Part shown: positions 1,247 to 43,559 of the stretch, one piece after another
Layout of the letters: every line of letters begins with the position of its first letter
Numbering within the stretch: position 1 is the first letter of the stretch
DNA from: Chitinophaga pinensis
GTDB taxonomy: Bacteria > Bacteroidota > Bacteroidia > NS11-12g > UBA955
Length of the DNA: 64,000 nt
Reading direction: 5' to 3'
Assembly: GCA_945890895.1 (NCBI GenBank)
Contig: CAMDDG010000006.1
Coordinates: 1,601 to 65,600, forward strand
Notes under the pieces: generated by a model
Databases searched by the model: none
Seen by the model: only the letters and a program-made list of their open reading frames with translations
What the model was told of the DNA's origin: nothing
Position numbers and translations under genes: made by a program

Positions 1247-2029
1247 TTACTTGTTTCGCTCTTGTTGTTTGGACACCGCATAAAGTTCTTCCATTTCAGC
1301 CAAGGTCATGTCTTTTAATGATTTACCCATGTCTTCTGCTTGGGCTTCCATCGATTGGAATCGACTCTTGAACTTAATGTTGCAACGCTCTAATGCCGTG
1401 TCGGGATTGATTCCACGCAAGCGGGCATAATTAATCAATGAAAACAAATAATCGCCAAATTCTTCCTCTTGGTGTTCGGGAGTTTTCGCCTCTTTGAATT
1501 CCTGCCATTCTTCTTCTACTTTTTCGTAAGCCAGTTCTGCATCGTCCCAATCAAAACCCACTTGGCTGGCCTTTTCCTGCATTCTATATGCTTTTACTAT
1601 GCTGTTCAATCCTTTGGGAACGCCATCCAATACGCCATTTTTCTTTTTGCCTTTCTCCTGGAGTTTAATCTGCTCCCAATTTTGAAGTACCGTTTCAGTA
1701 TTGTCAGCTTTCACATCACCATAAATATGAGGATGACGACGTATCAATTTTTCAATCAGCGTTTTACACACTTCACCGACATCAAAGTACTCCTTTTCGC
1801 TGGCTATCTTCGAGTAAAACACGATATGCAACATTAAATCACCGAGTTCTTTTTTCACCTCATCTACATCCCCCGACATAATTGCATCCGACAATTCATG
1901 CACTTCTTCAATGCTTAGGGTACGGATACTTTCCCATGTTTGTTCTTTATCCCAGGGACATTGGGCTCTCAAATCGTTCATCACATCCAGCAGTTGTGAA
2001 AACTGTTCCAATATTTCTTCTCTATTCAT
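1247..2029 (-). CDS. mazG: nucleoside triphosphate pyrophosphohydrolase MazG
   Basis: CPWDKEQTWESIR, EELGDL-type motif (KKELGDLM), KLIRRHPHIYG, tandem MazG domains, GFDW. Confidence 0.96.
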   Translation of the reverse strand: MNREEILEQFSQLLDVMNDLRAQCPWDKEQTWESIRTLSIEEVHELSDAIMSGDVDEVKKELGDLMLHIVFYSKIASEKEYFDVGEVCKTLIEKLIRRHPHIYGDVKADNTETVLQNWEQIKLQEKGKKKNGVLDGVPKGLNSIVKAYRMQEKASQVGFDWDDAELAYEKVEEEWQEFKEAKTPEHQEEEFGDYLFSLINYARLRGINPDTALERCNIKFKSRFQSMEAQAEDMGKSLKDMTLAEMEELYAVSKQQERNK

Positions 2030-2163
2030 GGTGAATGGGTTGTAAATGGTTGTATTTTAATTTAATAGGTATTTGAATGTATTCGAGTTGGATTTTCGGG
2101 GGATGTTAATTCTATTCGAGGTAATTATGATTTTTAGGGTATTTTGAACCGACAACTGTAGAG

Positions 2164-2171
2164 CAAATTTA
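2164..2171 (-). promoter_or_regulatory. Bacteroidota -7 promoter element (TAAATTTG) upstream of mazG
   Basis: CAAATTTA on + strand matches the TAnnTTTG consensus on - strand, about 135 nt upstream of the mazG ATG. Confidence 0.5.
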
Positions 2172-2233
2172 CTGTTGTAATGCGAAGTTAATTACCAAAA
2201 AAATGAAAAAAGTTAAACCAGAAGTTTATGGGT

Positions 2234-3409
2234 TTAAAACTCCAACATTAGATCCATGAGTGCCAAATTAGTCATGGCTTCTACAATTGGAACTGCCCTG
2301 GGCAACACGCAAGGATCATGTCGACCAGATGCACTGAACGAAATTTCCTCGAATAAGGAATTTAGGGTGTTTTGATCCTTTTTTATGGTGGAGGTAGGTT
2401 TGAATGCTACTTCGAAATACAAGTAGCTGCCGGTTGAAATTCCGCCAATGATTCCGCCCGCATGATTGGTACGAGTACCAATGGATCCGTCGGATTGTAT
2501 GCACCACTCATCGTTATTTTCAGCACCATTATTCAAAACAGCAGTAAAACCATCCCCAAAAGAAACCCCTTTTACCGCGTTGATATTCAATAGATAATGT
2601 CCTAAAACTGCTTGTAATTTTCCGAAAACGGGTTCGCCAATTCCCATAGGTACGTTTTCCACTACGCAAGCAATAATTCCGCCCAAACTATTTCCTGAAT
2701 TTCGGGCTTCTTCAATGGCCGACATCATCTCAACTTGTTGAGGAAAGGGACATCGAATCGGGGAAGCTTCTATGTTTTCAGGGGTAGGGAAGTGGGAATA
2801 TGGGTGTGTCGCTTGAGTTTTTGGATTCGAAGATGTAACATTCAATTCAGTGTTTATTGTAGATTCCATCGCCGAATCAGACTTACCAACGATTGAGTGA
2901 ATTTGTTTCACCCAAGCTCGGGTGTGAATTTTACTGCCCTTTAATGCTGGATGTTGCTTTGCTGACCTTGATTTCAGCCATTGCTGTGCTAATGCACCGG
3001 CAGCTACCCAACCAGCTGTGATTCGTGCGCTGGAACGTCCGCCTCCGCGATGATCACGGTGACCGTATTTAATTTGATACAATAAATCTGCATGTCCGGG
3101 ACGAAAAACTTCCTTTAAATGGTCGTAATCTTCTGGACGGGCATCTGTATTGGGAATGAGAATCGTTATGGGAGCACCGGTGGATTTATTTTCATACAAT
3201 CCAGAGATGATTTGAAATTCATCTTTTTCTTTTCTGGGGGATGTAAATGCGTTTTGACCCGGTTTTCTGCGGTTTAATTGTTGCTGAAGTTCGGTGTGGT
3301 TGATTCTGAAATTAGATGGAAAACCATCGATAACGACGCCCACAAAGGGACCATGACTTTCACCGAATGAAGTTATAACCAGGTTCTTTCCAATGCTATT
3401 TCGACTCAT
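2234..3409 (-). CDS. aroC: chorismate synthase
   Basis: FGESHG, RPGHAD, RGGGRSSARIT, FKPTSTI, GRHDPCVLPRAVPIVEAM signatures. Confidence 0.97.
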   Translation of the reverse strand: MSRNSIGKNLVITSFGESHGPFVGVVIDGFPSNFRINHTELQQQLNRRKPGQNAFTSPRKEKDEFQIISGLYENKSTGAPITILIPNTDARPEDYDHLKEVFRPGHADLLYQIKYGHRDHRGGGRSSARITAGWVAAGALAQQWLKSRSAKQHPALKGSKIHTRAWVKQIHSIVGKSDSAMESTINTELNVTSSNPKTQATHPYSHFPTPENIEASPIRCPFPQQVEMMSAIEEARNSGNSLGGIIACVVENVPMGIGEPVFGKLQAVLGHYLLNINAVKGVSFGDGFTAVLNNGAENNDEWCIQSDGSIGTRTNHAGGIIGGISTGSYLYFEVAFKPTSTIKKDQNTLNSLFEEISFSASGRHDPCVLPRAVPIVEAMTNLALMDLMLEF

Positions 3410-3429
3410 AGGATTTCAAAGTTACTTTT

Positions 3430-4980
3430 TTAACTACCCAATTTTTGAAATTCTTTCCAAAATTGGGGGAAGGATTTTTCCACGCAATCAACATCATCCA
3501 CCCATTGTGAAAATTCCTCTAGTTTATGGGTAGAATTATTTGTAAATCCAACTGTGAAGTTGGTTATTGAAGCAAATGTCATTGCCATTCTGTGATCTGA
3601 ACACGTACGGAAAGGCAAGTTCGGTAGATTTAAATCCGATTGAAACGAATTCAATTGGGTTGGCATCGAATTTAAGAAATAGTTATTGGGCCATTGACTG
3701 TCTTGAATCAATTGAAATCCAAAACGGGTTAAATTCTCGTTCAATACAGCTATTCGATTTGATTCTTTATAGATCAGATTATGAATGTTTCTTAAATAAG
3801 CTGATTTTTTCAAAATAACCAGTGCTGCTACTAACGATGGCACCGTGTCCGGGATATCTCCAAGGTCCCAATCGAAATCAAATTTATCGGTTTGAGTTGT
3901 TGGGTGGTTGGAGTTCTCGTGCAGGATTTCGGGAAAAGGAACTTCAGCTTCTTTGTTTTCGAATGCGCTTTGAAGATTTTTGGATTGGTTAGGATTGTTT
4001 AAGTTTGAATTTCTTCGTACCAACAGTTGATCCATTTTGAATTCGAATTCTAAACCCAATTCTTCATAGAACGAAATCATTTTCCGATCGCCTTGATACG
4101 AATCCATTCTCAAATATTTAAATGAAATTTCCGAATTTGAATCTTGAACCAGCATTTGATTTAAGAAATAACTCAAAGAACTCCAATCTGCTTCTACCGT
4201 ATATTCTTGTTTACCGTTATAATCTCCAGAAATAAATATCGTTTGATCGCGGAATTCAATCTGATACCCAAAATCACGCATCACAGATGCCGTCATTTTT
4301 ATGTATGAGTCGGAATGCGAATGTCCCAATAGCTCAATTTCAACGCAATAATTTTGTGTTTGACTGGAATCGTGGCAATTTAATTCTGTTGAAAAAATGG
4401 AATCAGAATTTGGAATCCTGTTTTCATGGACGGAATTAGAAATCGCATTGTTTTTTAATCTACTCATCAAGCTACAGCTAATCAACATGATAGCACTTAC
4501 AAATTGGCTCGAAATGCTACGATTTATCGCAAATTTTAATCGATTCGTCGCAATGTTATTATAATTTTCTCTAGGCAACAGTTGAACTGGGAAAAATCCA
4601 TATTGGTTTACGTACTGAATTTTACATCCCCCGAAAGAGAGAACATCCACCAACGATTCAATGCTTCGGTTTTGCAAGCTTTCATTGCCGGTTATGATAC
4701 ACGGTTTACCTAAAACAGCACACAGAGTCAGGAAAAAGCGGGAAGGGGTGCCGGCATCTAAAAAATCGAATGTCGGAATAACTTCTTTGGTATCCGATTC
4801 TTCATTGGAATCCGATTCAAGTTGACGTAATGCGTTTAAGAGCAACTGCGTGTCTCTGGAATCGGATAAACCGTAAATATTTTTGAAAGGTGCACCATGA
4901 AGGTACGCTAGAATCAAAGCGCGATTGGAGATGCTCTTGGAGCCAGGTAAATGAATTTCTTTGGCGTTGTTACGCGTCAT
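3430..4980 (-). CDS. aroA: 3-phosphoshikimate 1-carboxyvinyltransferase (EPSP synthase), lengthened by internal insertions
   Basis: LPGSKSISNRALIL, AGTPSRF, SSQFVSA, EADWSS, KESNRI, SDHRMAM, VEKSFPQFW. Confidence 0.93.
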   Translation of the reverse strand: MTRNNAKEIHLPGSKSISNRALILAYLHGAPFKNIYGLSDSRDTQLLLNALRQLESDSNEESDTKEVIPTFDFLDAGTPSRFFLTLCAVLGKPCIITGNESLQNRSIESLVDVLSFGGCKIQYVNQYGFFPVQLLPRENYNNIATNRLKFAINRSISSQFVSAIMLISCSLMSRLKNNAISNSVHENRIPNSDSIFSTELNCHDSSQTQNYCVEIELLGHSHSDSYIKMTASVMRDFGYQIEFRDQTIFISGDYNGKQEYTVEADWSSLSYFLNQMLVQDSNSEISFKYLRMDSYQGDRKMISFYEELGLEFEFKMDQLLVRRNSNLNNPNQSKNLQSAFENKEAEVPFPEILHENSNHPTTQTDKFDFDWDLGDIPDTVPSLVAALVILKKSAYLRNIHNLIYKESNRIAVLNENLTRFGFQLIQDSQWPNNYFLNSMPTQLNSFQSDLNLPNLPFRTCSDHRMAMTFASITNFTVGFTNNSTHKLEEFSQWVDDVDCVEKSFPQFWKEFQKLGS

Positions 4981-6031
4981 TTTCAGCTTCGAGTTCTTTA
5001 AGAACTGCGTGTTTCATAGCGAAATTACGCATTTCTTCTTCGGAAACTTCTATATTGTAATGACAATCTCCAATATTTTTAGCCAATGTAAATTGAATTT
5101 TACCGTGTGCATTCTTTTTATCGTGCATCAATAAACTCACTAATTGACTGGCTTCCTCTTCATCCCAAGAAATTTTTGGAAATAAAGGAAAAATTCGTTC
5201 TTCAATGATTTTTAAGGTTTCGAGGGATGTGAATCCCATTTCAACACCCATTACTGCTTCCCAATATATCCCGTTTGCAACAGAAATACCGTGAGTCATT
5301 TCTGGATCCTCGAAATAGATGGCCTCCAGTCCATGTCCGATGGTATGGCCTAAATTGAGAAGCTTGCGTTTTCCTTTTTCACGAAAATCGTCAGATACTA
5401 CATCTTGTTTAAAGGAAACATTTTCGCGAATAATTTCCATCCAGTTTTGAGTTTCTTCAATTGGAGGAATACCATCTTGCGTTTTATGCCAGATGTTGCC
5501 ACCTTGAATAATTCCATGTTTTAATATTTCCGCCCAACCGGATAAAATTTCTCTGTGAGTAAGGGATTTTAGAAAATCAATGTTTCTGAGAATTTTTGTG
5601 GGTTGCGTGAAAGTACCAATGATATTCTTGGTTCCGTAGAAATTGATTCCGGTTTTACCCCCTTCGGATCCATCTACCATAGATAACAGGGTAGTAGGAA
5701 TATAAATACAAGGAATACCTCGCATGTATACCGAGGCTGCGAAACCCCCAAAATCCAAAACGGCACCACCGCCAAGTGCAATAACAACCGAATTGCGATT
5801 TACATCATTGCGAATCATTGCTTCCCAAAAGTCTTCACAAAAACCCAAGGTTTTTGCTTCATCTCCATCGGGAATTTCGTAAATGATATTATCAATGTTC
5901 TTATAAATTTCCAAAATAGGAAGACACAAAGCGCGAGAGGTAGTGGAAACTACCAACACGATTTTGTCGGGAGAGTTTAACGAGATCCAATCTCCTAACC
6001 TCTGGTCGATGGTGTCGGTAAATACAATCAT
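4970..6031 (-). CDS. aroB: 3-dehydroquinate synthase
   Basis: ALGGGAVLDFGGF, PTTLLSMVD, GGKTGIN, LNLGHTIGHGLE, HDKKN. Confidence 0.96.
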   Translation of the reverse strand: MIVFTDTIDQRLGDWISLNSPDKIVLVVSTTSRALCLPILEIYKNIDNIIYEIPDGDEAKTLGFCEDFWEAMIRNDVNRNSVVIALGGGAVLDFGGFAASVYMRGIPCIYIPTTLLSMVDGSEGGKTGINFYGTKNIIGTFTQPTKILRNIDFLKSLTHREILSGWAEILKHGIIQGGNIWHKTQDGIPPIEETQNWMEIIRENVSFKQDVVSDDFREKGKRKLLNLGHTIGHGLEAIYFEDPEMTHGISVANGIYWEAVMGVEMGFTSLETLKIIEERIFPLFPKISWDEEEASQLVSLLMHDKKNAHGKIQFTLAKNIGDCHYNIEVSEEEMRNFAMKHAVLKELEAENDA

Positions 6032-6992: not shown

Positions 6993-8192
6993 TTAATCAA
7001 AAATCCATTGATTCAATGTTTCTACTATCAAATGTGCAATATCCGATTTCGAGGCAATCTCAGATTCTTTTTGCCTTCCATCTTTATGGATAATGTGAAT
7101 TTTATTGGTGGGCGTTTTGAATCCGCTGTGTTCGGAAACAAGATTTAAAATCACGGCATCCAACTGTTTTTTTTCTAATTTTTCAACAGCATTTTGTAAG
7201 CCGTTATTGGTTTCGAGTGCAAATCCAACGGTTTTTTGATGAGGCTGCTTAGACAATGAAAGTGACTTCAAAATGTCCATGTTCTTCACCAAATTCAGCG
7301 TTAAATGTTCTTCAGATTTTTTTATTTTTTCGGGGGATGTCTGTTCAACTCGATAATCAGCAACCGCGGCAGACATGATCAACATATCACTACCAATAAA
7401 TGCGTTTTGGGTTTTTTCAAACATTTCTTGAGCTGAAATTACCCGAGTTGTTTTTATATGACTTGGAATTTCTAAATGAGATGGACCCATAATTAAATGG
7501 ACCTCGGCTCCCCAATCAGAAAGTACATGTGCAATTTCTAAACCCATTTGACCCGTAGAATGATTTCCAATAAATCGTACCGGGTCAATGGCCTCATACG
7601 TGGGACCTGCGGTTACTACCACCTTTTTACCGATAAATTGAGAGTTTTTTGGAGTAAAATGATCTTTCAGTACCGTAAATATGGTTTCTGGTTCTGCCAT
7701 TCTACCTTTCCCAGATAATCCTGAAGCTAAGGGACCATTTTCTGCATCGATGATGGAAACTCCGCGTTCGATTAATGTTTTTAGATTCGTTTGAACAGAC
7801 TCCTGCTGAAACATATCCAAATCCATTGCCGGTGCAATCCAAACAGGACAGCGAGCTGATAGGTAAGTAGTTAGTAGGAGATTATCGCATTGTCCGGATA
7901 CCATTTTAGCGATGGTATTAGAACCACAAGGTGCAATAACGAGGGCATCGGCCCAAAGTCCAAGTTGCACATGATGATTCCATTGTCCAGATTCTGGATC
8001 GAAGAAATCAACCAGGGTAGGTTCTTCGGATAAAACTGAAAGTGTTTGTTGTGTAACGAATTGAAGTGCGGCGGGAGTACAAATAACTTTTACGTTTGCT
8101 TTTTGAAGTTTAAGCAAACGGACTAACAGGGGTATTTTGTATGCCGCAATACCCCCGGTAATTCCGATTAATATGTTTTTATTTTGAAGCAT
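6993..8192 (-). CDS. coaBC: phosphopantothenoylcysteine decarboxylase / phosphopantothenate--cysteine ligase
   Basis: GITGGIAAYK, APAMDLDM, GKGRMAEP, TAGPTYEAIDPVRFIGNHSTGQMG, AAVADY, VGFALET. Confidence 0.97.
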   Translation of the reverse strand: MLQNKNILIGITGGIAAYKIPLLVRLLKLQKANVKVICTPAALQFVTQQTLSVLSEEPTLVDFFDPESGQWNHHVQLGLWADALVIAPCGSNTIAKMVSGQCDNLLLTTYLSARCPVWIAPAMDLDMFQQESVQTNLKTLIERGVSIIDAENGPLASGLSGKGRMAEPETIFTVLKDHFTPKNSQFIGKKVVVTAGPTYEAIDPVRFIGNHSTGQMGLEIAHVLSDWGAEVHLIMGPSHLEIPSHIKTTRVISAQEMFEKTQNAFIGSDMLIMSAAVADYRVEQTSPEKIKKSEEHLTLNLVKNMDILKSLSLSKQPHQKTVGFALETNNGLQNAVEKLEKKQLDAVILNLVSEHSGFKTPTNKIHIIHKDGRQKESEIASKSDIAHLIVETLNQWIFD

Positions 8193-8505
8193 TGTCCGAA
8201 TCGGGCAATCTCCAGTAGGTTTTGTTTTCGATGAACTCTTGAGTAGCCAAAATAGTTGGTTTAGGCATTCTCTCGTACATCAATGAAATCTCAATTTGCT
8301 CGCGATTTTCTTGAATTTCTTCTAAATTATCGCTGTCGTGAGCAAATGGTTCTAAACGATTTTTAAGTTCTTCCTTTTGCTTCTCTGCGATTTGGTCTGC
8401 ACGACGAGAAATGATAGAAGTAGTAAGATACACATTATGTGTTTCGTGTTCCATCAAACGTAAATCGCGGGTTTCTGCGTTGGTTTTACTTTTAATATGA
8501 CTCAT
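8179..8505 (-). CDS. rpoZ: DNA-directed RNA polymerase subunit omega (Bacteroidota type)
   Basis: LEEIQENREQIEISLMYERMPKP; conserved bamD-rpoZ-coaBC order. Confidence 0.88.
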   Translation of the reverse strand: MSHIKSKTNAETRDLRLMEHETHNVYLTTSIISRRADQIAEKQKEELKNRLEPFAHDSDNLEEIQENREQIEISLMYERMPKPTILATQEFIENKTYWRLPDSDNASK

Positions 8506-9311
8506 AGGATTTCTTTTAATTTTTTAATTTCGGTTTCACTGTTGGTTTTAAGTTCAAGGGCTTCAGCATAGTGTTTGCTTGTAGCATCGTTGTTGTAGCG
8601 ATAATCATCGAACAAAATAAGTACTTCTTCCAATCGAGCAATTCGCTTGGATTCAATGCTTTTCATGGCATATTGATACTGCGCTTTAACGGCCAGAAAT
8701 TCCAATTCTTCTCTTTGGGGAATATCCGGGTACAATTTAATGGTGGTTTTAGTAGCTGTAACCGTGGATTTGAATTCACCCATTTTATAGTACTGTATGG
8801 CAATTTCGTATTCTTTCTTTTGCAGTTTACCCCGCATTTCGTCAATCAATGCATTGCATTTTTCCGTGTATTCAGAGTCGGGATAATAATTAACAAAAGT
8901 TTGCATGGCTTCCATAACATTGCGCGTATCGGATTGATCCAAATCATGATCTCCAATCAACATGTAATCACAATAAATGGCCATGTATGAGCATTCAATA
9001 ACCCGATCGTTATTGGTAAAATTATCGGTGTAGTCTTTAAAAAACAAGGAAGCGTAAGAGTAATCCTTTAAATGATAATAACTCATTGCAATATGATAGT
9101 ACACGTTTTCAAGACTATCGGTGCGGCGGTAAATGTCGCGCAATTGCTCAAATAATTGCACGGCACGCGAGTAATCTTTCTCTTTGTACTTCTTCATGGC
9201 CATGGTGTATTTTGCCGAACTGTCTTTCGACTTATACACTTTATGGTATTCCCCGCAGGAAACCATCCCCAGAAAGAAAAACAATACTACGAAGACTCGA
9301 TTTATACGCAT
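8502..9311 (-). CDS. bamD: outer membrane protein assembly factor BamD (lipoprotein)
   Basis: Lipobox MVSC, TPR helices, LDQSDT, FVNYYPDSEY, YYKMG. Start may be 9311 or 9320. Confidence 0.9.
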   Translation of the reverse strand: MRINRVFVVLFFFLGMVSCGEYHKVYKSKDSSAKYTMAMKKYKEKDYSRAVQLFEQLRDIYRRTDSLENVYYHIAMSYYHLKDYSYASLFFKDYTDNFTNNDRVIECSYMAIYCDYMLIGDHDLDQSDTRNVMEAMQTFVNYYPDSEYTEKCNALIDEMRGKLQKKEYEIAIQYYKMGEFKSTVTATKTTIKLYPDIPQREELEFLAVKAQYQYAMKSIESKRIARLEEVLILFDDYRYNNDATSKHYAEALELKTNSETEIKKLKEIL

Positions 9312-9328
9312 TTTATGCAATTAACCCG

Positions 9329-9401: not shown

Positions 9402-9408
9402 TGGCTTT

Positions 9409-10257: not shown

Positions 10258-10329
10258 TGCCTAAAGCCAATCCGGTTAATCATTGAATTAAACCAATAAT
10301 CAGTCCTGTTTTGCGTTAAATAATTGACT

Positions 10330-11748
10330 ATGAAAAAATCCATCAGATTGATTCTCACTTTTTTGGTTTTCGGGGGATATTTTTTCACCTCGCAAGCCCA
10401 AATGGTCAATGCATTTAAAGGGCGCAAAACACGCATACTGTTTTTGCTGGATGCCAGCGGAAGTATGTTGGCTCAAATGGATCAATCCAATCGCTGGTCG
10501 GTTGCAGTAACCTTTATTTCGAATATGGTGGATAGCTTAAGAGCAGTTTCCGATGTTGAAGTGGGTTTACGGGTGTTTGGGCATACACAACCCAACGATA
10601 AGCGCGATTGTCATGATACCAAATTGGAGGTTCCATTTTCAGCATTCAACCACAAAGAATTCCAAAAACGCATAAAACAGATCAAACCTCTTGGCTATAC
10701 GTCGATAACACAATCATTGTTAGCTACAGAGAATGATTTCCCCCAGGATAAAACAGCCAGAAACATCATCATTATCATTACCGATGGGGTGGAAGAATGT
10801 AACGGAGATCCATGTCAAGTAAGCGAGCTATTACAGCGCAAAGGAATAATTTTAAAACCATTCATTGTAGGTATGGGAACGGACAGTGAAGCTTTCAGAA
10901 AGCAATATCTTTGTGCCGGAAAATATTACAACGCCGAAACTGCTTCCGAATTCAATAAAATTATGGGTGTTATTGTGAATCAGTCACTGAACAATACTTC
11001 CGTTCAATTTAATTTGTTGGATGAAGCCGGAATGCCCCGCGAAAGCGATATTCCCATTACGTTATTTGATGCAGATAATGGGCAAATGGTGGAACATTTT
11101 GTACATACAATGAATGGTAAAGGAATTCCCGATACGCTCTATCTTGATCCTTTACGAAAATACAATATGTTGGTGCATACCTTGCCACCGTTGAGTAAAA
11201 ATAACATTGAAATTATTCCTGGAATACACAATACAGTGGCCCTTCCTACACCTCGTGGGGATCTTCAATTGAAAATTGGAGGAATAACATCCTATCGTTC
11301 TTTGGGTGCTGTAGTGATTCCATCGCCGGGATACAAGGCCCCAAACGGTGAATCGATCGATCCAAACATCATCAATCACCAGTTATTTAATTCATCTAAA
11401 AAATACATTACCGGTAGCTACGACGTGGAAATTTTGTCTACCCCAAGAATTCGATTTAATGGTGTAACAATCCGACAAAATAAGACAACCACGTTAGAGA
11501 TTCCTTCACCTGGAATGTTGCAACTATCCTTATCTCGGGATATTGCAGGAGCGGTATTTGTTAAAAGGGAAAACCAAAAATTGGAATGGGTCATGGATTT
11601 ACCTTTGGGTTCAGGAAAGCACAATTTAGTGATGCAACCCGGTGTATATCAAGTAATTTACCGTCCTAAAAGCGAAACAAGAACACTGTATACAAAAAAT
11701 AAAGAATTTAAAATAACCACGGGAACCAATACAATGCTTACGTTATAG
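10330..11748 (+). CDS. exported von Willebrand factor A domain protein
   Basis: Signal peptide; MIDAS motif LLDASGSM; ITDGVEECNGDPC. Confidence 0.85.
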   Translation: MKKSIRLILTFLVFGGYFFTSQAQMVNAFKGRKTRILFLLDASGSMLAQMDQSNRWSVAVTFISNMVDSLRAVSDVEVGLRVFGHTQPNDKRDCHDTKLEVPFSAFNHKEFQKRIKQIKPLGYTSITQSLLATENDFPQDKTARNIIIIITDGVEECNGDPCQVSELLQRKGIILKPFIVGMGTDSEAFRKQYLCAGKYYNAETASEFNKIMGVIVNQSLNNTSVQFNLLDEAGMPRESDIPITLFDADNGQMVEHFVHTMNGKGIPDTLYLDPLRKYNMLVHTLPPLSKNNIEIIPGIHNTVALPTPRGDLQLKIGGITSYRSLGAVVIPSPGYKAPNGESIDPNIINHQLFNSSKKYITGSYDVEILSTPRIRFNGVTIRQNKTTTLEIPSPGMLQLSLSRDIAGAVFVKRENQKLEWVMDLPLGSGKHNLVMQPGVYQVIYRPKSETRTLYTKNKEFKITTGTNTMLTL

Positions 11749-29295: not shown

Positions 29296-29476
29296 CGGCG
29301 ATAATTTTACAAAACTAACCATTCCGTGTAAATTTGTAAAATTAATCGACCAACACATTCGTTTAAACTATTGTTTAAAGTTCGAATTGCCCTATATGAA
29401 GAACCGAAATTTCGAAATGTGCACAGCACAACCATCCCCCGAAAAGCTGAAAAATCCCATGCAAAATCCCCTAGTA

Positions 29477-33808: not shown

Positions 33809-36508
33809 TTGAGCAATCAAAGTAAAACATATCAAATAGGGTTAATATTTTTTCTGTTCCTTTTCGGGGGATGGAATAGCGGAATTTCGCAGTTTTGGAG
33901 TCCTCAAAACATCCAAGATCGGTATAAAACCAGTATGATCATTCGCAATTACCGCGAATTAAAAATGGTTTCCTCCGAATTAAACCGCTTTATTCATATT
34001 GAGCGCTTACGAATTGATGGAGATGTGGATGTAAATACCGTTTCTCAGTTGGTTTCAAAAATGCCCTGGGTAGACGAATTGCAACTGATTCAATTTCAAG
34101 GTATTATTTCTGATGTGGACTTGAGAAATTTGGAATGGGTTCCTTCTATTTATTTGTATGTTCCCAAAGATCGAGAAGATGCACTGCTCTTGAACGACCA
34201 ATGGAAGAATATTGCCAATATCACGTTGCAATTCCAAGAGGTTCCTGAACAATGGGACTTTATGAAAGGGTGGAAAAATTGTCAGTCATTAACGGTTTTG
34301 GCAACTATGTCAAAATCCGATGCCGAAAATCTTTTGAAACAAGTTGTAGAATCGATCCCCAATATTAAACGTTTAGGACTGTCATTGGCTTCGGTTAAAC
34401 ACATTCCAACTTCCATTAAAAAATTGAATTCGTTAAAAGAAATAACCATTATTAATGCTGCCGATGTAGAAATAAAAAATCCTGATGCTCAAGGTACCCA
34501 AATGAATAATTCGGATGTGTTAATGGGATTGGTGTATTCGGATTTAGGTAGGGAAACCATTCCGGTTGAAATTCGCGCAAAAAATGTGGCCGTTTCTCGT
34601 GGTGATACTCGAACCGGAGATCAATTAGTTGAGGAAGTTCATATTCCCATCTTTGTTCCATTTCATTATGTTGCTGCCGATCCAAAATTATTGTCTTCGG
34701 ATTTGAAATATATTTATGAATTGTTTCCAAATTCGCCAAAGGACCCCAATTTCAGTTGGACTACAGAAGAAAATACAACCATTGATTTTGTTGAATTCAC
34801 CGAGTTGAAACGGGAGAAATTATCCGCCAAATACGGAATTCAGAAGCAGGCATTTGTAAATGACTATAACGACGGCATTTACGAATATGAAGGAAATGCC
34901 AATAATGATGAGACCTTTTATGGGGAAGGGAAATGGGCGGTTTTAGTTCCGAAAAATGCATTAATTCCTAAATTATCATTGAAGAATATTGAAAAGAAAT
35001 TCGCAACGGAAAACGCCAACAGTTCAAGTAAAAATGCATCAATTGCAATGGCTGCATGGCAGCAAGACTATCGGTTAATTGTAAAAGCGAGTCAATCTGC
35101 AGAGCGCAATGCTGCGTTAGGCAGAAGTTTTCAATATGATTCGTCCGGCAAAGTGTATTTATTGGATGCCGGAGTTTGGTTTGAAATCTCAGCCACATCT
35201 TTGGATGGTGATATAGACTTGGAAGTTCGTCCGGGTTATTTTTTGCAAATCAATTATCAGGCATCCGTGCGCGACTCCAGTCGATTCTACGCCTATAACA
35301 TCCCCCGAAAAAAATGGGTAAATTATTATGACTACGATTATGATTTCGACGATGAGTTCGTGGCAAAAATTGATTTTTATCAATTTAATCAAGGTGCAAA
35401 TTCTGCGAAGAAACATTCGGAAAACGATGTATTAAATCTGGATGAGATTTTTGAATCTGCTGGATATCATTATTTATTATCACCGACGGAATTAAAGGCC
35501 CAATTGATACCGGTAAAGGGAAATTATATTCAAAAAAGTTCAACGCCACCATCCAGTGGAACCAGTTTTCCTCTATTTCGCGGACGATCTAATGTGCGAG
35601 TTCGTGTTCTGGGTGCATTGAAAATACCAGACGTAGTTGGAATCGAAATATCAGATGTGTCTATGGGGAAATTGTTCCCAGAATTAGGATCATTCGAAGG
35701 ATTTGTATTCTATATTCAGACTAAAGCATCGCGAAAATACGTCGTAGATTTTTTCAAATCCCAAAGAATTGTCGATGTACGGATAAAAAAATACGGTGAT
35801 CATCCGCAATTGGAATTCAAAACCGATCAGTGGATTCTAGAACTGTCTTGTATGGGCTATAAAAATCTATCTGCCTATGGTGTAGCGAGTTCAGAACAAA
35901 TAGCATTGCAAAAAAAATGGGACCAAAAGTTCATGCAGTATCAAAATCGTCGAAATTTAAAGAATCAATATTGGCTTAATTGGAGAAAGAATCAAGAGAG
36001 TTTAGCTATGCAAAAAACGGCTGAAACGGTTTTTGGTACCTCAAAACTGCTTGCTGGGAATAAACGAGGTTCAATGAAAGTTCGAAGTATGGGGGAGTTT
36101 GTAATTGCAAGACCCAGTGCCCTAATTTCCACTCATTATTTAGAAATTGTATTTTGCGACGCCGGGAAAATACCTTTAAAATGTACGGACGTTTTGGTTG
36201 TATTGGAGCAGCCACAATCTGCATTAAAATTAGAAAATCCCAATAAAAATGCAACATCAGCTACTGATGCACCGCGATATAAATTGAATATAAATCCGAA
36301 GCAAATTTCCACCATTTTGGTTAAAACCCAACAGGGACAAGTGTACTACATGACTGGAGATGCGTTTAGAAAATTGAATTTAATGGATAATTCGATTTCT
36401 TATGTTTCTTTGCAACCGCTGCCAGATAAAGTGTATAATTCGGAAATTTTATCCGATCAGTTGGGGATTAAAACAAAGAAGCAAAAAACAGTTCCTAAAG
36501 CTCCATAG
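33809..36508 (+). CDS. large exported hypothetical protein, N-terminal LRR-like region
   Basis: 899-aa ORF, signal peptide, LRR-like IKRLGLSLASVKHIPTSIKKLNSLKEITI. Confidence 0.6.
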   Translation: MSNQSKTYQIGLIFFLFLFGGWNSGISQFWSPQNIQDRYKTSMIIRNYRELKMVSSELNRFIHIERLRIDGDVDVNTVSQLVSKMPWVDELQLIQFQGIISDVDLRNLEWVPSIYLYVPKDREDALLLNDQWKNIANITLQFQEVPEQWDFMKGWKNCQSLTVLATMSKSDAENLLKQVVESIPNIKRLGLSLASVKHIPTSIKKLNSLKEITIINAADVEIKNPDAQGTQMNNSDVLMGLVYSDLGRETIPVEIRAKNVAVSRGDTRTGDQLVEEVHIPIFVPFHYVAADPKLLSSDLKYIYELFPNSPKDPNFSWTTEENTTIDFVEFTELKREKLSAKYGIQKQAFVNDYNDGIYEYEGNANNDETFYGEGKWAVLVPKNALIPKLSLKNIEKKFATENANSSSKNASIAMAAWQQDYRLIVKASQSAERNAALGRSFQYDSSGKVYLLDAGVWFEISATSLDGDIDLEVRPGYFLQINYQASVRDSSRFYAYNIPRKKWVNYYDYDYDFDDEFVAKIDFYQFNQGANSAKKHSENDVLNLDEIFESAGYHYLLSPTELKAQLIPVKGNYIQKSSTPPSSGTSFPLFRGRSNVRVRVLGALKIPDVVGIEISDVSMGKLFPELGSFEGFVFYIQTKASRKYVVDFFKSQRIVDVRIKKYGDHPQLEFKTDQWILELSCMGYKNLSAYGVASSEQIALQKKWDQKFMQYQNRRNLKNQYWLNWRKNQESLAMQKTAETVFGTSKLLAGNKRGSMKVRSMGEFVIARPSALISTHYLEIVFCDAGKIPLKCTDVLVVLEQPQSALKLENPNKNATSATDAPRYKLNINPKQISTILVKTQQGQVYYMTGDAFRKLNLMDNSISYVSLQPLPDKVYNSEILSDQLGIKTKKQKTVPKAP

Positions 36509-40963: not shown

Positions 40964-41887
40964 TTGTCGCTCAAATCTAATTTAAAATTATCTCGTGGCG
41001 TTTCTATGATGTTGATTGCCAGTTTGGCATTTGGCTTTATGAACGTCACGGTAAAAATGATTTCCGGGATGCACGTCTCGGAAATCGTTTTTTTTAGGGC
41101 TATCGTGCAGATTATAATCGCATCCGTTATCCTATTTAAGCAGAATGAAAGTCCGCTTGGAAAGAATCCCAAGATGCTTTTTATGCGTGGACTTTTCGGC
41201 TCTTTGGGATTGCTGTGCTATTTTTACTCACTGCAATTAATGCCCCTAAGTAACGCTCTCGTTATTCATTATATTTCTCCCATTTTAACCACAATTTTAG
41301 CCATGCTCATGGGAGATGAACGCGTTCAACCCATTCAATGGTTCTTCTTCCTGATCTGTTTTGTGGGTGTGATTGTTGTAAACAGTGAAATTTCATTGAA
41401 TCAAATTCAATTGTTGCAAGGTGTAACTCCATTTGGAATACTTATGGGATTAGGTGGTGCATTCTTTTCTGCCTTTGCCTACAATACGATCCGTAGGTTG
41501 AAGGGCATTGAAAATCCAAACGTGGTAGTGCTGTATTTTCCATTGGTAACAATTCCGATTTCTTTGATTTTTCCTCTCGGGGGATGGGGGACATGGCACT
41601 GGCCAAAAATGGGTGATTATTGGTGGCAAATTGCCTCTAATGAATGGATATGGCTTATTTTAACGGGTGTTTTTACACAAGTGGGACAGTTTTTTATGAC
41701 CCGTGCTTATCAAGAAGCCGAAACAAAATTGGTGTCTGCAATTAGTTATGCTGGAATTATTTGGGGAACAGCATTTGGATTGTTCCTATTTGATGAGTCA
41801 TATAATGGGTTTCAATACATGGGTATGGTGCTGGTTATATTGGGAATGGTACTGAATGTTCAAATCAATAAACAAACTTCAAAATAA
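40964..41887 (+). CDS. DMT/EamA family transporter
   Basis: Ten TM segments, EIVFFR, RGLFG, duplicated EamA fold. Confidence 0.88.
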   Translation: MSLKSNLKLSRGVSMMLIASLAFGFMNVTVKMISGMHVSEIVFFRAIVQIIIASVILFKQNESPLGKNPKMLFMRGLFGSLGLLCYFYSLQLMPLSNALVIHYISPILTTILAMLMGDERVQPIQWFFFLICFVGVIVVNSEISLNQIQLLQGVTPFGILMGLGGAFFSAFAYNTIRRLKGIENPNVVVLYFPLVTIPISLIFPLGGWGTWHWPKMGDYWWQIASNEWIWLILTGVFTQVGQFFMTRAYQEAETKLVSAISYAGIIWGTAFGLFLFDESYNGFQYMGMVLVILGMVLNVQINKQTSK

Positions 41888-41964
41888 CTTGTAAATAATA
41901 GATGAAATCATTATATTTGCAGTCCTTTTTGTAAAAATCATCTAAACATTAAATTAACAAACCG

Positions 41965-42213
41965 ATGAAAACCGATATACATCCAAAAAATTACCGTAAA
42001 GTTGTGTTCAAGGATATGAGCTGTGATCATTCTTTTATCACACATTCTTGTGTTGACACCAAAGAAACTATTGTTTGGGAAGATGGTAATGAGTATCCTT
42101 TGTATAAGTTAGAGATTTCTTCACAATCTCACCCTTTCTACACAGGTAAGCAAAACTTAGTGGATACTGCAGGACGTATCGACAAGTTCATGAAGCGTTA
42201 CGGAAAGAAGTAA
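41965..42213 (+). CDS. rpmE2: 50S ribosomal protein L31 type B
   Basis: [39 protein letters not shown]; TATATTTG box at 41912-41919. Confidence 0.95.
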
Positions 42214-42244
42214 TTTGCTTTTTCCACATTAAACCATGTTTTAT

Positions 42245-42271
42245 AAAGGTTGCTTAGGCAACCTTTTTTTT
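42245..42271 (+). terminator. rho-independent terminator after rpmE2
   Basis: AAAGGTTGC-TTAG-GCAACCTTT followed by T run. Confidence 0.85.
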
Positions 42272-42314
42272 GTTATAAACTTTTTTGTATCATCCGACTA
42301 TAGTAGCTTTGAAT

Positions 42315-43559
42315 ATGCATTTTCAATTTTTCGACGATTCACAGATTAATCACCTGTTTCCATTAACTTTAACCCGTCCATCCGCAGATCTAAGAGTGGG
42401 AATTTTAACCATAGCCGAAAAGTGGTTGCATGATTTTTCAATTCAAGATTCTAATTCATTTGGATTTCAAACACGCGATTATTTGTCGAAAAAGTTTTTA
42501 TCCATTCATGCAAAATCAACATCCCCCGAAATAATAACGTATATAAACGGAAAAGTGGTTCCTAACGAGGCCTTGAATCATCAAGTTCGCAATTTATCCA
42601 CTAACCAAAAATTGGTTAAAGAGGGTGTATTGATTGCATTTCGCAGCCAATTACTCAATTTTACTGAGTTCAATACCCTTTTGGAAAACGATTTTTCGCA
42701 ATTTGATTCCGTAGAGTTTGAGTCAAATATCACCGTTATTTCTCGTCCATTTCATATTTTTAAACTCAATGCTCAAGAAATCCAAGCCGATTTTGAGCGA
42801 TTAACCGCAGGGAAAACCAGTCAACCGCTGTCACAAACCAATACTAAATTGGGTAAATTTCCGGTATTTTTAGAGGAAGGAGCACAAGTAGAATGTTCCA
42901 TATTAAATGCATTGGACGGACCGATTTATCTGGGTAAAAATTCAGAAATTATGGAAGGTTCTGTTGTGCGTGGCCCGCTGGCTTTATGCGAAGGTTCTAA
43001 ATTAAAATTATCAACTAAAGTTTACGGAGCAACCACCTTAGGACCTTATTCCAATGTGGGCGGAGAGGTGAATAATATTGTTATTCAAGGATATAGCAAC
43101 AAAGGGCACGATGGATTTTTGGGAAATGCAGTTTTAGGCGAATGGTGCAATATCGGAGCCGATTCAAATTGTTCTAATTTAAAGAACACCTACGACGAAG
43201 TGAAAGTTTGGAATTATGCTACGCGTAGATTCGATAAAAGTGGTATGCAATTTTGTGGACTAATCATGGGGGATCATTCCAAATGCGGAATTAATACTAT
43301 GTTTAACACGGGAACTGTTGTGGGTGTTGCATGCAATTTATTTGGTGCAGGATTTCCACGTCAATTCGTACCTGATTTTTCGTGGGGAGGTGCTTCCGGT
43401 TTTGTAACACATAAATTGACGGCAGTAGATAAAACGGCTGCATTGGTATTGGTGCGAAGAGGGAAGGAGTACAACGAATTAGAACAAGAAATAATGCATT
43501 ACTTGTATCAAAATACGGCAGGCGAACGTACTTGGGAGATAGAAGAATCAGGTTCTTAA
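42315..43559 (+). CDS. GlmU-related putative sugar nucleotidyltransferase/acyltransferase
   Basis: LFPLTLTRPSADLRVGILTIAEKW; hexapeptide region; NKGHDGFLG, GDHSKCGIN. Confidence 0.85.
   Translation: MHFQFFDDSQINHLFPLTLTRPSADLRVGILTIAEKWLHDFSIQDSNSFGFQTRDYLSKKFLSIHAKSTSPEIITYINGKVVPNEALNHQVRNLSTNQKLVKEGVLIAFRSQLLNFTEFNTLLENDFSQFDSVEFESNITVISRPFHIFKLNAQEIQADFERLTAGKTSQPLSQTNTKLGKFPVFLEEGAQVECSILNALDGPIYLGKNSEIMEGSVVRGPLALCEGSKLKLSTKVYGATTLGPYSNVGGEVNNIVIQGYSNKGHDGFLGNAVLGEWCNIGADSNCSNLKNTYDEVKVWNYATRRFDKSGMQFCGLIMGDHSKCGINTMFNTGTVVGVACNLFGAGFPRQFVPDFSWGGASGFVTHKLTAVDKTAALVLVRRGKEYNELEQEIMHYLYQNTAGERTWEIEESGS

What the first reader, a model, noticed from the sequence alone, without database searches (positions are those of the whole stretch)
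1867..42531. Dispersed, strand-unbiased 12-14 bp motif (A)CATCCCCCGAAA(A): candidate DNA-uptake-sequence-like or HIP-like signal in a Bacteroidota genome
Seen: 8 exact copies (2094-,4625+,7328-,19635+,29433+,33862-,35299+,42520+) and 7 single-mismatch copies (1867,5218,9264,10368,16148,27533,41575). Four copies extend to the exact 14-mer ACATCCCCCGAAAA, and the 3' flank is usually A-rich. A rough zero-order estimate at ~36% GC gives about 0.003 exact copies expected on both strands of 64 kb. The motif is not a protein motif: it is read as F-G-G-x (aroA, DUF5723, 899-aa gene, VWA), S-P-E (coaBC, GlmU-like) and I-P-R (899-aa gene), and also occurs in non-coding DNA upstream of mazG. It sits in unrelated core genes, is not palindromic, and its 5:3 strand split argues against Chi/KOPS-type polar signals. 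Known: this distribution matches Neisseriaceae DUS and Pasteurellaceae USS (transformation uptake bias) and cyanobacterial HIP1 (methyltransferase-linked). I know of no equivalent in Bacteroidota. Inference: a sequence-specific DNA uptake/self-recognition system, or the binding site of an unknown nucleoid or repair protein. The GGATG/CATCC core equals the FokI-type recognition site, so a methylation-linked mechanism is an alternative. Unlike DUS, no copy lies in the terminator hairpins of this window.
Basis: partly seen in the sequence, partly recalled or inferred. Interest (0 to 1): 0.88.

Follow-up and report, generated by a model that had tools for sequence, protein, structure and literature searches.

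The report
Genome-wide DNA word with dialects
A 10-12 base DNA word is written hundreds of times into unrelated genes of this uncultured Bacteroidota bacterium, and sister species carry one-letter "dialects" of it, a pattern so far known only from the DNA-uptake signals of two proteobacterial families.

Summary
All 8 exact and 7 one-mismatch copies lie at the stated coordinates; shuffles give 0 and 0.24.

Genome-wide (2.87 Mb), CATCCCCCGAAA is the commonest 12-mer (163 copies) and TCCCCCGAAA the commonest 10-mer (317). It occurs in all six frames and in intergenic DNA. It exceeds a synonymous-codon shuffle: 125 coding 12-mers against about 2. It overrides codon usage: S-P-E is spelt TCC-CCC-GAA 105 of 300 times, 8.8 expected.

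Copies arise by point substitution, not insertion. They are conserved above their flanks in close relatives: 25 of 41, 5.5 expected.

22 of 27 genomes of the genus carry one of three single-step dialects: TCCCCCGAAA, TCCCCCAAAA or TCCCTCAAAA. 108 genomes of 23 other genera in the order carry none.

Best reading (about 0.4): a DUS/USS-like signal spread by biased DNA uptake, through machinery without type IV pili. Function is unproven.

Points against:
- density is lower than for DUS;
- G000 shows a 63% replication-type polarity;
- no depletion in accessory DNA was seen.

The FokI/methylation idea is not supported.

The parts
2094..2105 (-). Exact CATCCCCCGAAA (within exact 14-mer 2093-2106), intergenic
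4625..4636 (+). Exact copy, antisense in ORF 3430..4980(-), read S-F-G-G-C
   Evidence: conserved 12/12 in G002 and G022 while flanks are 71-77% identical
7328..7339 (-). Exact copy (14-mer 7327-7340), sense in ORF 6993..8192(-), read T-S-P-E-K
   Evidence: G022 exact, G002 TATCCCCCGAAA, G004 lacks it
19635..19646 (+). Exact copy (14-mer 19634-19647), antisense in ORF 17540..19690(-), read V-F-G-G-C
29433..29444 (+). Exact copy, sense in ORF 29174..30688(+), read P-S-P-E-K
33862..33873 (-). Exact copy, antisense in the 899-aa ORF 33809..36508(+), read L-F-G-G-W
35299..35310 (+). Exact copy (14-mer 35298-35311), sense in the same 899-aa ORF, read N-I-P-R-K
42520..42531 (+). Exact copy, sense in ORF 42285..43559(+), read T-S-P-E-I; last copy before a 24-kb stretch without the word
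1867..1878 (+). One-mismatch copy CATCCCCCGACA, antisense in ORF 1247..2029(-)
   Evidence: G002/G022 have CATCCCCCGCCA, G004 an unrelated sequence
5218..5229 (-). One-mismatch copy CATCCCTCGAAA, sense in ORF 4970..6031(-)
9264..9275 (+). One-mismatch copy CATCCCCAGAAA, antisense in ORF 8502..9320(-)
10368..10379 (-). One-mismatch copy TATCCCCCGAAA (exact 10-mer core), antisense in ORF 10324..11748(+)
   Evidence: identical in G002 and G022
16148..16159 (-). One-mismatch copy CATCCCCCGGAA, antisense in ORF 12997..16365(+)
   Evidence: same variant in G002, G022 and G004, absent in G001 and G008
27533..27544 (-). One-mismatch copy CATCCCCAGAAA, sense in ORF 27017..27793(-)
41575..41586 (-). One-mismatch copy CATCCCCCGAGA, antisense in ORF 40964..41887(+)

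Best explanation
The word is the core of a longer, asymmetric DNA signal: about 35 bp, roughly cCGAAwwnA-CATCCCCCGAAAA followed by an A-rich, T-poor tract. A sequence-specific directional process, not coding needs, has written and keeps it in hundreds of places in the chromosome.

The mechanism I think most likely is the one known for the uptake sequences of Neisseriaceae (DUS) and Pasteurellaceae (USS). A DNA receptor of the cell's transformation machinery prefers fragments that carry the word. Such fragments from relatives are taken up and recombined more often. Chance near-matches, above all where S-P-E, F-G-G, I-P-R or similar peptides allow it by synonymous change, are therefore converted to the word and then held there. 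When the receptor's specificity shifts by one base, the old word decays and a new one builds up. This gives the three dialects in the genus.

No type IV pilus ATPase is present, so the uptake route would have to be the pilus-independent Bacteroidota type described genetically in Riemerella: ComEC, DprA, ComF, a helix-hairpin-helix protein and outer-membrane proteins of unknown family.

Shown here: the hyper-abundance, its DNA-level nature, origin by substitution, conservation within a dialect group, derived status across dialect groups, the dialects, and restriction to the genus.

Inferred, not shown: that the directional process is biased DNA uptake, and that a receptor exists.
For: Abundance:
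- Top-ranked 10- and 12-mer: 317 and 163 copies. My arithmetic from the composition expects about 0.13 copies of the 12-mer.

DNA-level nature:
- 128 sense, 128 antisense and 61 intergenic 10-mers, in all frames.
- Synonymous-codon shuffle: 163 observed against a mean of 40.4, of which 38 are untouched intergenic copies.
- The motif spelling is the commonest encoding of each compatible tripeptide, 8-24 times above codon-usage expectation, even though GGG is the rarest Gly codon.

Specificity:
- T4-A13 of the 14-mer tolerate almost no single change: 0-12 against 54.
- Flank signals occur in the sense, antisense and intergenic classes alike. A second CpG lies exactly 15 bp upstream in 117 of 369 sites (background 13). 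The 16 nt downstream are A 0.49-0.57 and T 0.16-0.17. This architecture resembles the USS: a core with AT-rich flanks (recalled).

Origin and maintenance:
- Flanks are unrelated.
- Orthologues differ by substitutions such as GGGGGA against GGTGGT.
- G002 against G000: 25 of 41 exact, neutral expectation 5.5; core identity 0.93 against flank 0.80 (one search gives 23 of 34 for the 10-mer).
- Sites of dialect B (G017) are less conserved in G000 than their flanks (0.63 against 0.70; 3 of 48 exact, 2.8 expected), so they are derived in that lineage.

Dialects:
- A (TCCCCCGAAA): 54-344 copies in 14 genomes.
- B (TCCCTCAAAA): 265-464 copies in 8 genomes that hold only 3-20 copies of A.
- C (TCCCCCAAAA): dominant in G041, where all the words are interleaved on the same contigs.
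- None of these in 5 genomes.
- Sub-dialects at the 5' flank.
- Replacing hundreds of sites wholesale is natural for a drive and hard for sites each selected for a local function (inference).

Distribution:
- Restricted to the genus: 136-619 copies of TCCCYCRAAA in 13 genus genomes, against 5-46 in 108 genomes of 23 other genera.

Machinery:
- ComEC 24 of 27, DprA 23 of 27, and a ComEA-like HhH protein a few kb from comEC.

Precedent in the phylum:
- Riemerella transforms without a type IV pilus (passages of PMC8459023).
- R. columbina prefers its own DNA, and no uptake word was found with k of 10 or less (passages of PMC7965970).
Against: - ComEC, DprA and HHH_3 also ring in non-competent control genomes, so their presence says little.
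- No type IV pilus or T2SS ATPase over cut-off in 27 of 27 genomes, so the only receptor type known for a DUS (the pilin ComP) cannot be present.
- Density is 0.06-0.27 per kb. DUS/USS reach about 1 per kb (recalled).
- In G000 the word shows a replication-type polarity: 184:108 on the G-rich strand, while composition-matched words sit there 37-42% of the time. The polarity holds for intergenic (37:17) and antisense sites. No general orientation bias is reported for DUS/USS (passage of PMC2346458). In samples of three other genomes the split is 87:80.
- No lower density in DNA that does not align to G000: G002 1.25 against 1.34 per 10 kb. No word-free stretch is longer than chance allows.
- No inverted pairs or terminator copies. 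Close pairs are direct, 15-16 bp apart.
- DprA status does not separate genomes with the word from those without: 19 of 22 against 3 of 5 intact (my count).
Confidence: 0.4

Rival explanations
1. The word is the binding site of an intracellular protein of the chromosome (a nucleoid-, replication- or repair-associated factor). Its density, rather than any single position, is under selection, or it is spread by a repair or conversion bias inside the cell. This is the HIP1 situation: hyper-abundant, conserved, function unknown.
For: - Equal density in DNA alignable and not alignable to G000, and no significant word-free islands. This fits a process acting on all resident DNA.
- Replication-type polarity in G000, strongest in intergenic DNA.
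- A long asymmetric footprint with two CpGs 15 bp apart and an A-tract suits a DNA-binding protein.
- Conservation above flanks parallels what is reported for HIP1 (start of the abstract of PMC5861425, seen in the search listing only).
Against: - Three dialects replace each other completely within one genus, and five members have none. That would need hundreds of functional sites to be re-evolved or given up without harm.
- Positions are not conserved across dialects or deeper splits.
- No candidate protein was identified.
- No Vsr (0 of 27) and no reverse transcriptase in G000 to provide a known conversion mechanism.
Confidence: 0.28
2. The word is a Chi-like regulator of an AddAB/RecBCD-type end-resection enzyme. 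It would be read on single-stranded DNA and mark 'self' DNA.
For: - A helicase-nuclease of the AddA/RecB type is present: PDDEXK_1 in an open frame of 1100 aa, with sub-threshold NCBIfam similarity to AddA, RecB and UvrD.
- Leading-type polarity of 63-66% in G000, against the compositional trend.
- The density of the whole word family, 529 copies of TCCCYCRAAA in 2.87 Mb or about 1 per 5 kb, is like that of Chi in E. coli (recalled).
Against: - Known Chi sites are 5-8 nt, a few-fold over-represented and about 75% or more skewed (recalled). Here 10-12 specified bases plus flank signals are about 1000 times over-represented.
- Polarity is weak or absent elsewhere: G017 58:51, G001 22:22, G004 7:7.
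- No RecC was found.
- Fast dialect turnover within a genus is not known for Chi (recalled).
Confidence: 0.1
3. The drive comes from another route of biased DNA transfer: pac-like packaging sites of a transducing phage or gene-transfer agent, or nick sites of a conjugative relaxase. These would promote their own transfer between relatives.
For: - The logic is the same as for uptake sequences and would equally give dialects and point-substitution origin (inference).
- A bipartite asymmetric site of about 30 bp is the kind of site that terminase small subunits or relaxases bind (recalled).
Against: - No Terminase_6N match in G000. Only that one terminase family was searched.
- Only 6 integrase-type matches in G000.
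Confidence: 0.07
4. A methylation-linked bias: a methyltransferase that recognises GGATG/CATCC or the CpG, together with very-short-patch repair, enriches the word.
For: - The G-to-A change at the CpG is the commonest variant: 12 against 54 in the 14-mer table, and CATCCCCCAAAA has 71 copies. This is as expected for a methylated CpG.
- A second CpG lies at a fixed distance of 15 bp.
Against: - CATCC is absent from the other dialects.
- Vsr was found in 0 of 27 genomes.
- 10-12 specified bases exceed the specificity of known methyltransferases (recalled).
- Methyltransferase genes themselves were not searched.
Confidence: 0.04
5. It is an artefact, or the end of a mobile repeat such as a MITE or REP.
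For: None found.
Against: - Flanks are unrelated beyond about 35 bp.
- Reading frames stay open, and orthologues show substitutions, not insertions.
- The same words recur in independent assemblies.
Confidence: 0.01

Closest known systems
DNA uptake sequences of Neisseriaceae (DUS, 10-12 nt) and uptake signal sequences of Pasteurellaceae (USS, 9-nt core with AT-rich flanks)
   Same: - A non-palindromic 10-12-mer that is the top word of the genome, on both strands, in all frames and in intergenic DNA.
- A sharp core with a halo of one-off variants.
- Weaker flank signals, including an AT-rich tract.
- Gained by point substitution at peptide-compatible places.
- Conserved in close relatives.
- One-letter dialects between related lineages. 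DUS dialects are cited as Frye et al. 2013 in the reference list of PMC7965970 and described in passages of 10.1101/2025.10.24.684340.
   Different: - A different phylum.
- No type IV pilus ATPase, hence no ComP-type pilin receptor.
- Density about 4-15 times lower (the DUS figure is recalled).
- No inverted pairs or terminator copies.
- Replication-type polarity in G000.
- No depletion in accessory DNA detected.
- Uptake function untested.
HIP1 (GCGATCGC) of cyanobacteria
   Same: - A hyper-abundant word inside unrelated genes, conserved beyond neutral expectation, with no established function (start of the abstract of PMC5861425, from the search listing).
- Restricted to a lineage.
   Different: - HIP1 is a palindromic octamer; this word is asymmetric and longer.
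- The link of HIP1 to methyltransferases is recalled, not checked here.
- No Vsr was found in this genus.
Chi sites of RecBCD/AddAB
   Same: - Asymmetric, dispersed through genes, with leading-type polarity in G000.
- An AddA/RecB-like enzyme is present.
   Different: - Much longer and far more over-represented.
- Polarity is weak and not reproduced in the three other genomes sampled.
- Dialect turnover within a genus.
Natural transformation of Riemerella (Bacteroidota) without a type IV pilus
   Same: - The same phylum.
- ComEC, DprA and an HhH protein are present here too.
- R. columbina prefers its own DNA (passages of PMC7965970).
   Different: - No uptake word was found in Riemerella with k of 10 or less (passages of PMC7965970).
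- Whether this genus is competent is unknown.
- The Riemerella proteins of unknown family could not be compared, because I had no sequence of them from any tool.

Membership tests
DUS/USS-type DNA uptake sequence | Short asymmetric word, hyper-abundant genome-wide on both strands, inside and between genes | tested here: met
   Top 10- and 12-mer; all six frames plus intergenic; far above the codon-preserving null
DUS/USS-type DNA uptake sequence | The word increases uptake or transformation of DNA that carries it | not testable with these tools
   Uncultured lineage; needs an uptake or competition assay
DUS/USS-type DNA uptake sequence | Competence machinery with type IV pilus (for DUS, the minor pilin ComP as receptor) | tested here: not met
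   T2SSE/PilB-PilT family over cut-off in 0 of 27 genus genomes, while 13 of 14 control genomes ring. ComEC 24 of 27, DprA 23 of 27 and a ComEA-like protein are present. Pilins and secretin were not searched
DUS/USS-type DNA uptake sequence | Dialects in related taxa | tested here: met
   Words A, B and C with near-exclusive distributions in 22 of 27 genomes; 5'-flank sub-dialects
DUS/USS-type DNA uptake sequence | No orientation bias relative to replication | tested here: inconclusive
   G000 184:108 towards the G-rich strand. G017 58:51, G001 22:22, G004 7:7. All assemblies are fragmented, and the strand was inferred from local GC skew only
DUS/USS-type DNA uptake sequence | Lower density in recently acquired DNA | tested here: inconclusive
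   No difference between chunks alignable and not alignable to G000. Longest word-free stretch is 45 kb against 39 kb expected by chance. Word-free stretches hold a polysaccharide locus, a PUL and also the ribosomal operon. A 19-kb low-GC contig with two integrase genes has no copy, which is too short to be significant
DUS/USS-type DNA uptake sequence | Frequent inverted pairs acting as terminators | tested here: not met
   Close pairs are direct repeats 15-16 bp apart. No copy in the terminator-like hairpins of window 1-20000
Chi site | Strong skew to the leading strand in all carriers | tested here: not met
   63-66% in G000; about 50% in samples of G017, G001 and G004
Chi site | RecBCD or AddAB present | tested here: inconclusive
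   No RecC. One AddA/RecB-like helicase-nuclease. An AddB partner was not looked for
HIP1-type highly iterated palindrome | Palindromic word | tested here: not met
   The word and its flanks are asymmetric
KOPS/SRS-type polar sequences | Skew of about 85% or more, switching at dif | tested here: not met
   63% at most. No switch of orientation at the skew change of G017 contig 1
REP/MITE-type mobile repeat | Copies share longer flanking sequence, are inserted, and lie mostly between genes | tested here: not met
   Flanks unrelated; 81% of 10-mers lie inside ORFs; orthologues differ by substitution
Methyltransferase/VSP-repair-driven word | Vsr-type endonuclease present and a recognition site shared by all carriers | tested here: not met
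   Vsr in 0 of 27 genomes; CATCC is not shared by the dialects. Methyltransferases were not searched

The most novel reading that the evidence does not exclude
This genus holds the first DNA-uptake-signal system outside the Proteobacteria. It would work without type IV pili, through a Bacteroidota-type outer-membrane uptake route whose receptor is unknown and reads a bipartite site of about 30 bp. It is caught in the act of changing specificity: three single-step dialects, one transitional genome, and five members that have lost or never had it.
Probability: 0.35. Interest if true: 0.9.

Novelty: new variant of a known kind. Interest (0 to 1): 0.8.

Why it matters
Words spread through a genome by a sequence-specific drive are known from very few lineages. 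A 2025 preprint still treats uptake-enhancing sequences as a matter of Neisseriaceae and Pasteurellaceae (passages of 10.1101/2025.10.24.684340). HIP1 in cyanobacteria remains unexplained.

A third, independent case would have several uses:
- It lies in another phylum, in free-living uncultured bacteria, and lacks the pilus machinery. This gives a natural comparison for how such signals arise, what they cost in codon and residue choice, and how specificity and genome co-evolve.
- The dialect structure (14, 8 and 1 genomes with a word, 5 without, and 108 outgroup genomes without) is an unusually clean design for finding the responsible protein by phyletic and co-variation profiling.
- If it is an uptake signal, it would show that natural transformation with self-preference operates in environmental Bacteroidota. 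It would also point to the unknown DNA receptor of the pilus-independent pathway found genetically in Riemerella.
- The words are also practical markers for binning and for spotting foreign DNA in these genomes.

Tried and rejected
- **Protein motif.** Rejected: all six frames, both strands and intergenic DNA.
- **Codon-usage by-product.** Rejected.
- **Longer repeat, MITE or insertion scar.** Rejected: flanks are unrelated and orthologues differ by substitutions.
- **Retron or reverse-transcriptase-templated conversion.** RVT_1 in only 3 of 27 genomes and not in G000.
- **VSP-repair drive.** Vsr in 0 of 27.
- **FokI-type site.** CATCC is not conserved between dialects.
- **Promoter or leader element.** Intergenic copies show no orientation preference towards the adjacent gene start: 21 against 16 by my count.
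- **RNA-level signal.** Unlikely, because sense and antisense copies are equally frequent.
- **Even spacing as for USS.** CV 0.94 against 1.03 ± 0.06 for random placement, not significant.
- **Core against accessory depletion.** Not seen. The classification is crude: 1-kb chunks alignable to G000.
- **Prophage test.** No Terminase_6N match. Six integrase matches, with one 19-kb low-GC contig carrying two integrases and no copy, which is too short to be significant.
- **Scans of public collections with the 14-mer.** The viral-contig scan gave no fetched stretch with more than 2 copies of the 9-mer core.
- **Named relatives.** They carry only coarse or evidently unreliable titles, so I give no name below 'Bacteroidota'. 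SusC/SusD and T9SS sorting domains fit that phylum.
- **The gene next to comEC.** It is conserved in 5 of 5 genomes compared and looked like a receptor candidate. It is an acidic, low-complexity-linker protein with no family, so I dropped it.
- **DprA.** Not found in G003 (98% complete) and interrupted by a stop in G018, both without the word. DprA is present in the other three genomes without the word and was not found in three incomplete genomes with it, so there is no significant link.
- **G004 contig 1 as an independent polarity test.** Only 14 sites and almost no GC skew, so uninformative.
- **Not used.** Structure prediction, the complex prediction job, the protein database searches and the sequencing-run tools. 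No supplementary files were consulted. The k-mer table of PMC7965970 was seen only as far as the passages show.

Full report
**1. Observation**

The window is G000:C6:1601-65600, from a 2,873,269-base assembly of 163 contigs with 36.8% G+C.

Dinucleotide-preserving shuffles give 0 and 0.24 matches.
- Four copies are the exact 14-mer.
- Their contexts are as described: xFGGx in antisense, xSPEx and IPR in sense, and one intergenic copy.

**2. Genome-wide abundance**

- CATCCCCCGAAA is the commonest canonical 12-mer: 163 copies, 75 forward and 88 reverse.
- TCCCCCGAAA is the commonest 10-mer (317), ahead of all A/T-rich low-complexity words. From the base composition about 0.13 copies of the 12-mer are expected (my arithmetic).
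- A crude ORF-based gene set (2,338 ORFs, 89% of the DNA) places the 317 10-mers as 128 sense, 128 antisense and 61 intergenic or at ORF edges, in every frame. Of the 163 12-mers, 38 are intergenic, about twice the non-coding share.
- I ran 40 shuffles that permute synonymous codons within each gene and leave intergenic DNA untouched. The 12-mer falls to a mean of 40.4 (sd 1.6, max 44), so about 2 of 125 coding copies are regenerated. The 10-mer falls from 317 to 74.8.
- The motif spelling is the single commonest way to encode each compatible tripeptide:
  - S-P-E as TCC-CCC-GAA: 105 of 300 (8.8 expected from codon usage).
  - F-G-G as TTC-GGG-GGA: 89 of 346 (4.1 expected), although GGG is the rarest glycine codon.
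  - I-P-R: 29 of 103 (1.2 expected).
  - S-G-D: 39 of 227 (2.2 expected).

This is a force acting on DNA that overrides codon preference.

**3. Anatomy**

- In the 14-mer ACATCCCCCGAAAA, positions T4 to A13 tolerate almost no single change: 0-12 copies against 54. The commonest variant is G10 to A.
- Outside the core there are weaker but real signals:
  - A at -4, C at -3 and A at -2, counted from the first C of the C-run.
  - A second CpG exactly 15 bp upstream of the core CpG in 117 of 369 sites (background 13). It lies in a context c-C-G-A-A-w-w.
  - An A-rich, T-poor tract of about 16-20 nt downstream (A 0.49-0.57, T 0.16-0.17).
- These flank signals are equally present in the sense, antisense and intergenic classes, so coding does not explain them.
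- Beyond that the flanks are unrelated.
- Close pairs are rare and direct, 15-16 bp apart, and all intergenic.
- Spacing is otherwise close to random: CV 0.94 against 1.03 ± 0.06. The longest word-free stretch, 45 kb, is within chance.
- The long word-free stretches hold a polysaccharide-synthesis locus, a SusC/SusD locus, the ribosomal-protein operon and DNA polymerase III. These are both accessory and highly constrained DNA.

**4. Origin and maintenance**

I compared orthologous DNA of five relatives for window 1-20000 and 250-400-kb samples of G001, G002, G003, G004 and G017.

- In the close trio G000/G002/G022 (80-85% identical) the copies persist while their flanks diverge.
- Of 41 G002 sites alignable to G000, 25 are exact in G000 against 5.5 expected from flank identity. 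Core identity is 0.93 against flank 0.80. Most of the rest are one step away (one search gives 23 of 34 for the 10-mer).
- At about 70% identity positions are mostly not shared: G001 1 of 10, G004 2 of 5.
- The differences are substitutions, often synonymous, such as GGGGGA against GGTGGT, and not insertions.
- At the 48 alignable sites of G017's word, G000 is less similar than in the flanks (0.63 against 0.70; 3 exact, 2.8 expected). Those sites were therefore made in the G017 lineage.

**5. Dialects**

All 27 genomes of the genus were searched.

| Group | Word | Genomes | Copies |
|---|---|---|---|
| A | TCCCCCGAAA | 14 | 54-344 |
| B | TCCCTCAAAA | 8 | 265-464 (only 3-20 copies of A) |
| C | TCCCCCAAAA | 1 (G041) | dominant among 471 copies of TCCCYCRAAA |
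| none | - | 5 (G003, G005, G007, G011, G018) | 66-120 copies of TCCCNCNAAA, reversed-word controls 38-73 |

- Within group A, 7 genomes carry the CA-prefixed 12-mer in 41-163 copies. The other 18 genus genomes searched have 0-5.
- G001 uses yTTCCCCCGA(A/G)AA.
- In G017 the B core is rTCCCTCAA(AA), with 109 copies in 400 kb.
- In G041 only 71 of the 471 copies are word A and 90 are word B. All the words are interleaved on the same contigs, so this is not a mixed bin.
- The three words are linked by single steps: A to C is G to A, and C to B is C to T.
- G003 shows no outstanding word in 253 kb.
- Outside the genus, 108 genomes of 23 genera of the same order hold 5-46 copies of TCCCYCRAAA, no more than their reversed-word controls. 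The 13 genus genomes in that search hold 136-619.

**6. Polarity**

- In G000 the C-rich form lies on the locally G-rich strand 184:108 (63%, p = 1e-5; 66% where |skew| is at least 0.05). Composition-matched C-rich words lie there only 37-42% of the time. Contig-level Spearman is 0.40.
- The bias is seen in intergenic copies (37:17). It is also seen in antisense copies, which favour genes on the minority strand (65:51, although 63% of coding DNA is on the G-rich strand). It therefore follows the neighbourhood, not the gene.
- In the samples of G017 (58:51), G001 (22:22) and G004 (7:7) the split is even. Pooled at 87:80, it differs from G000 at about p = 0.02 (my arithmetic).
- Orientation in G017 does not switch at the skew change of its contig 1.
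- Leading and lagging strands are inferred from GC skew only. I cannot explain this polarity.

**7. Genes**

- ComEC is found in 24 of 27 genomes, DprA in 23 of 27, and HHH_3 proteins in 27 of 27. The HHH_3 proteins include a ComEA-like one a few kb from comEC. All three families also ring in non-competent control genomes.
- The type IV pilus/T2SS ATPase family reaches its cut-off in 0 of 27.
- Vsr is found in 0 of 27. Reverse transcriptase is found in 3 of 27 and not in G000.
- G000 has no RecC but does have one AddA/RecB-like helicase-nuclease.
- No gene whose presence follows the words was identified. Whole proteomes of the relatives were not available to my scripts.

**8. Interpretation**

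- The shown facts call for a directional, sequence-specific process on DNA that is lineage-specific and whose specificity drifts in single steps.
- The only established mechanism with all these signatures is the molecular drive of uptake sequences. (That model is recalled. DUS dialects are cited in PMC7965970 and described in passages of 10.1101/2025.10.24.684340.)
- Complete replacement of one word by another, a transitional genome, and members with no word at all fit a by-product of a biased process better than hundreds of individually functional sites.
- A pilus-independent transformation route exists in the phylum (passages of PMC8459023). R. columbina prefers its own DNA, without a known word (passages of PMC7965970).
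- Against this reading stand the lower density, the lack of terminator pairs, the G000 polarity (USS/DUS show no general orientation bias; passage of PMC2346458), and the lack of depletion in non-alignable DNA.
- My odds are:
  - uptake-signal reading: 0.4;
  - intracellular binding or repair site of the HIP1 kind: 0.28;
  - Chi-like site: 0.1;
  - other transfer-bias sites: 0.07;
  - methylation-linked bias: 0.04;
  - artefact or mobile repeat: 0.01;
  - something not listed: the rest.

**9. Novelty**

- Searches for the word itself found nothing relevant.
- Searches for uptake sequences or over-represented or iterated words in Bacteroidetes/Bacteroidota also found nothing relevant.
- A 2025 preprint still treats uptake-enhancing sequences as a feature of two proteobacterial families (passages of 10.1101/2025.10.24.684340).
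- The library does not hold most subscription journals, and supplements were closed, so 'not in print' is limited to these searches.

Noticed in passing
G000, outside the window (not located): A family of overlapping 14-mers (for example within AAAAATACAATTTTGAAAGCAATTCACAAC) occurs 30-33 times each. It looks like the repeat of a CRISPR array; the resemblance to Bacteroidota type II-C repeats is recalled, not tested.
   Followed up: no
G000:C13:10780-18782 (loci L219): The comEC ORF (577 aa) matches only the Competence domain, with no beta-lactamase-domain match. It sits beside an ORF with conserved N- and C-terminal parts and a very acidic linker of variable length, found next to comEC in 5 of 5 genomes compared. 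A TatD DNase, a 5'-nucleotidase, thymidine kinase and a ComEA-like protein lie within 8 kb.
   Followed up: partly
G003 and G018 (genus members without the word): DprA was not found in G003 (98% complete). The G018 match carries an internal TAA. The other three genomes without the word have DprA.
   Followed up: partly
G017:C1:1-400000 (L172-L191): A second, unrelated repeat family is present (words such as GGACGGGGACC and AAGGTGGCGGATTCA, 13-17 copies per 400 kb). The GC skew changes sign near 115 kb.
   Followed up: no
G004:C1 (L370-L387): Periodic words such as ACCATGTACCAT, GTCCATAGTCCA and CCCGGTACCC occur 9-12 times. They suggest tandem or collagen-like repeat genes.
   Followed up: no
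G000:C45 (19,131 bases): This contig has tyrosine-recombinase genes near both ends, low G+C (0.326) and no copy of the word. It is possibly an integrated mobile element.
   Followed up: partly
window 42532-64000 (continues to G000:C6:68386): A 24-kb stretch carries no copy of TCCCCCGAA, after 15 copies or near-copies in the first 42.5 kb. This is within the range expected by chance.
   Followed up: partly
G000:C1:28147-28190, C54:359, C2:24185, C25:26034; also two 15-bp pairs in G023: Intergenic direct tandem pairs of the word lie 15-16 bp apart. This is the same distance as the second CpG of the extended motif.
   Followed up: partly
loci L011, L076, L091, L097 (genome contigs): Public records that align to G000 at 68-84% identity carry titles of unrelated taxa (Chitinophaga pinensis, Rhizobium sp., Oligoflexia). 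The names of these bins are probably unreliable.
   Followed up: no
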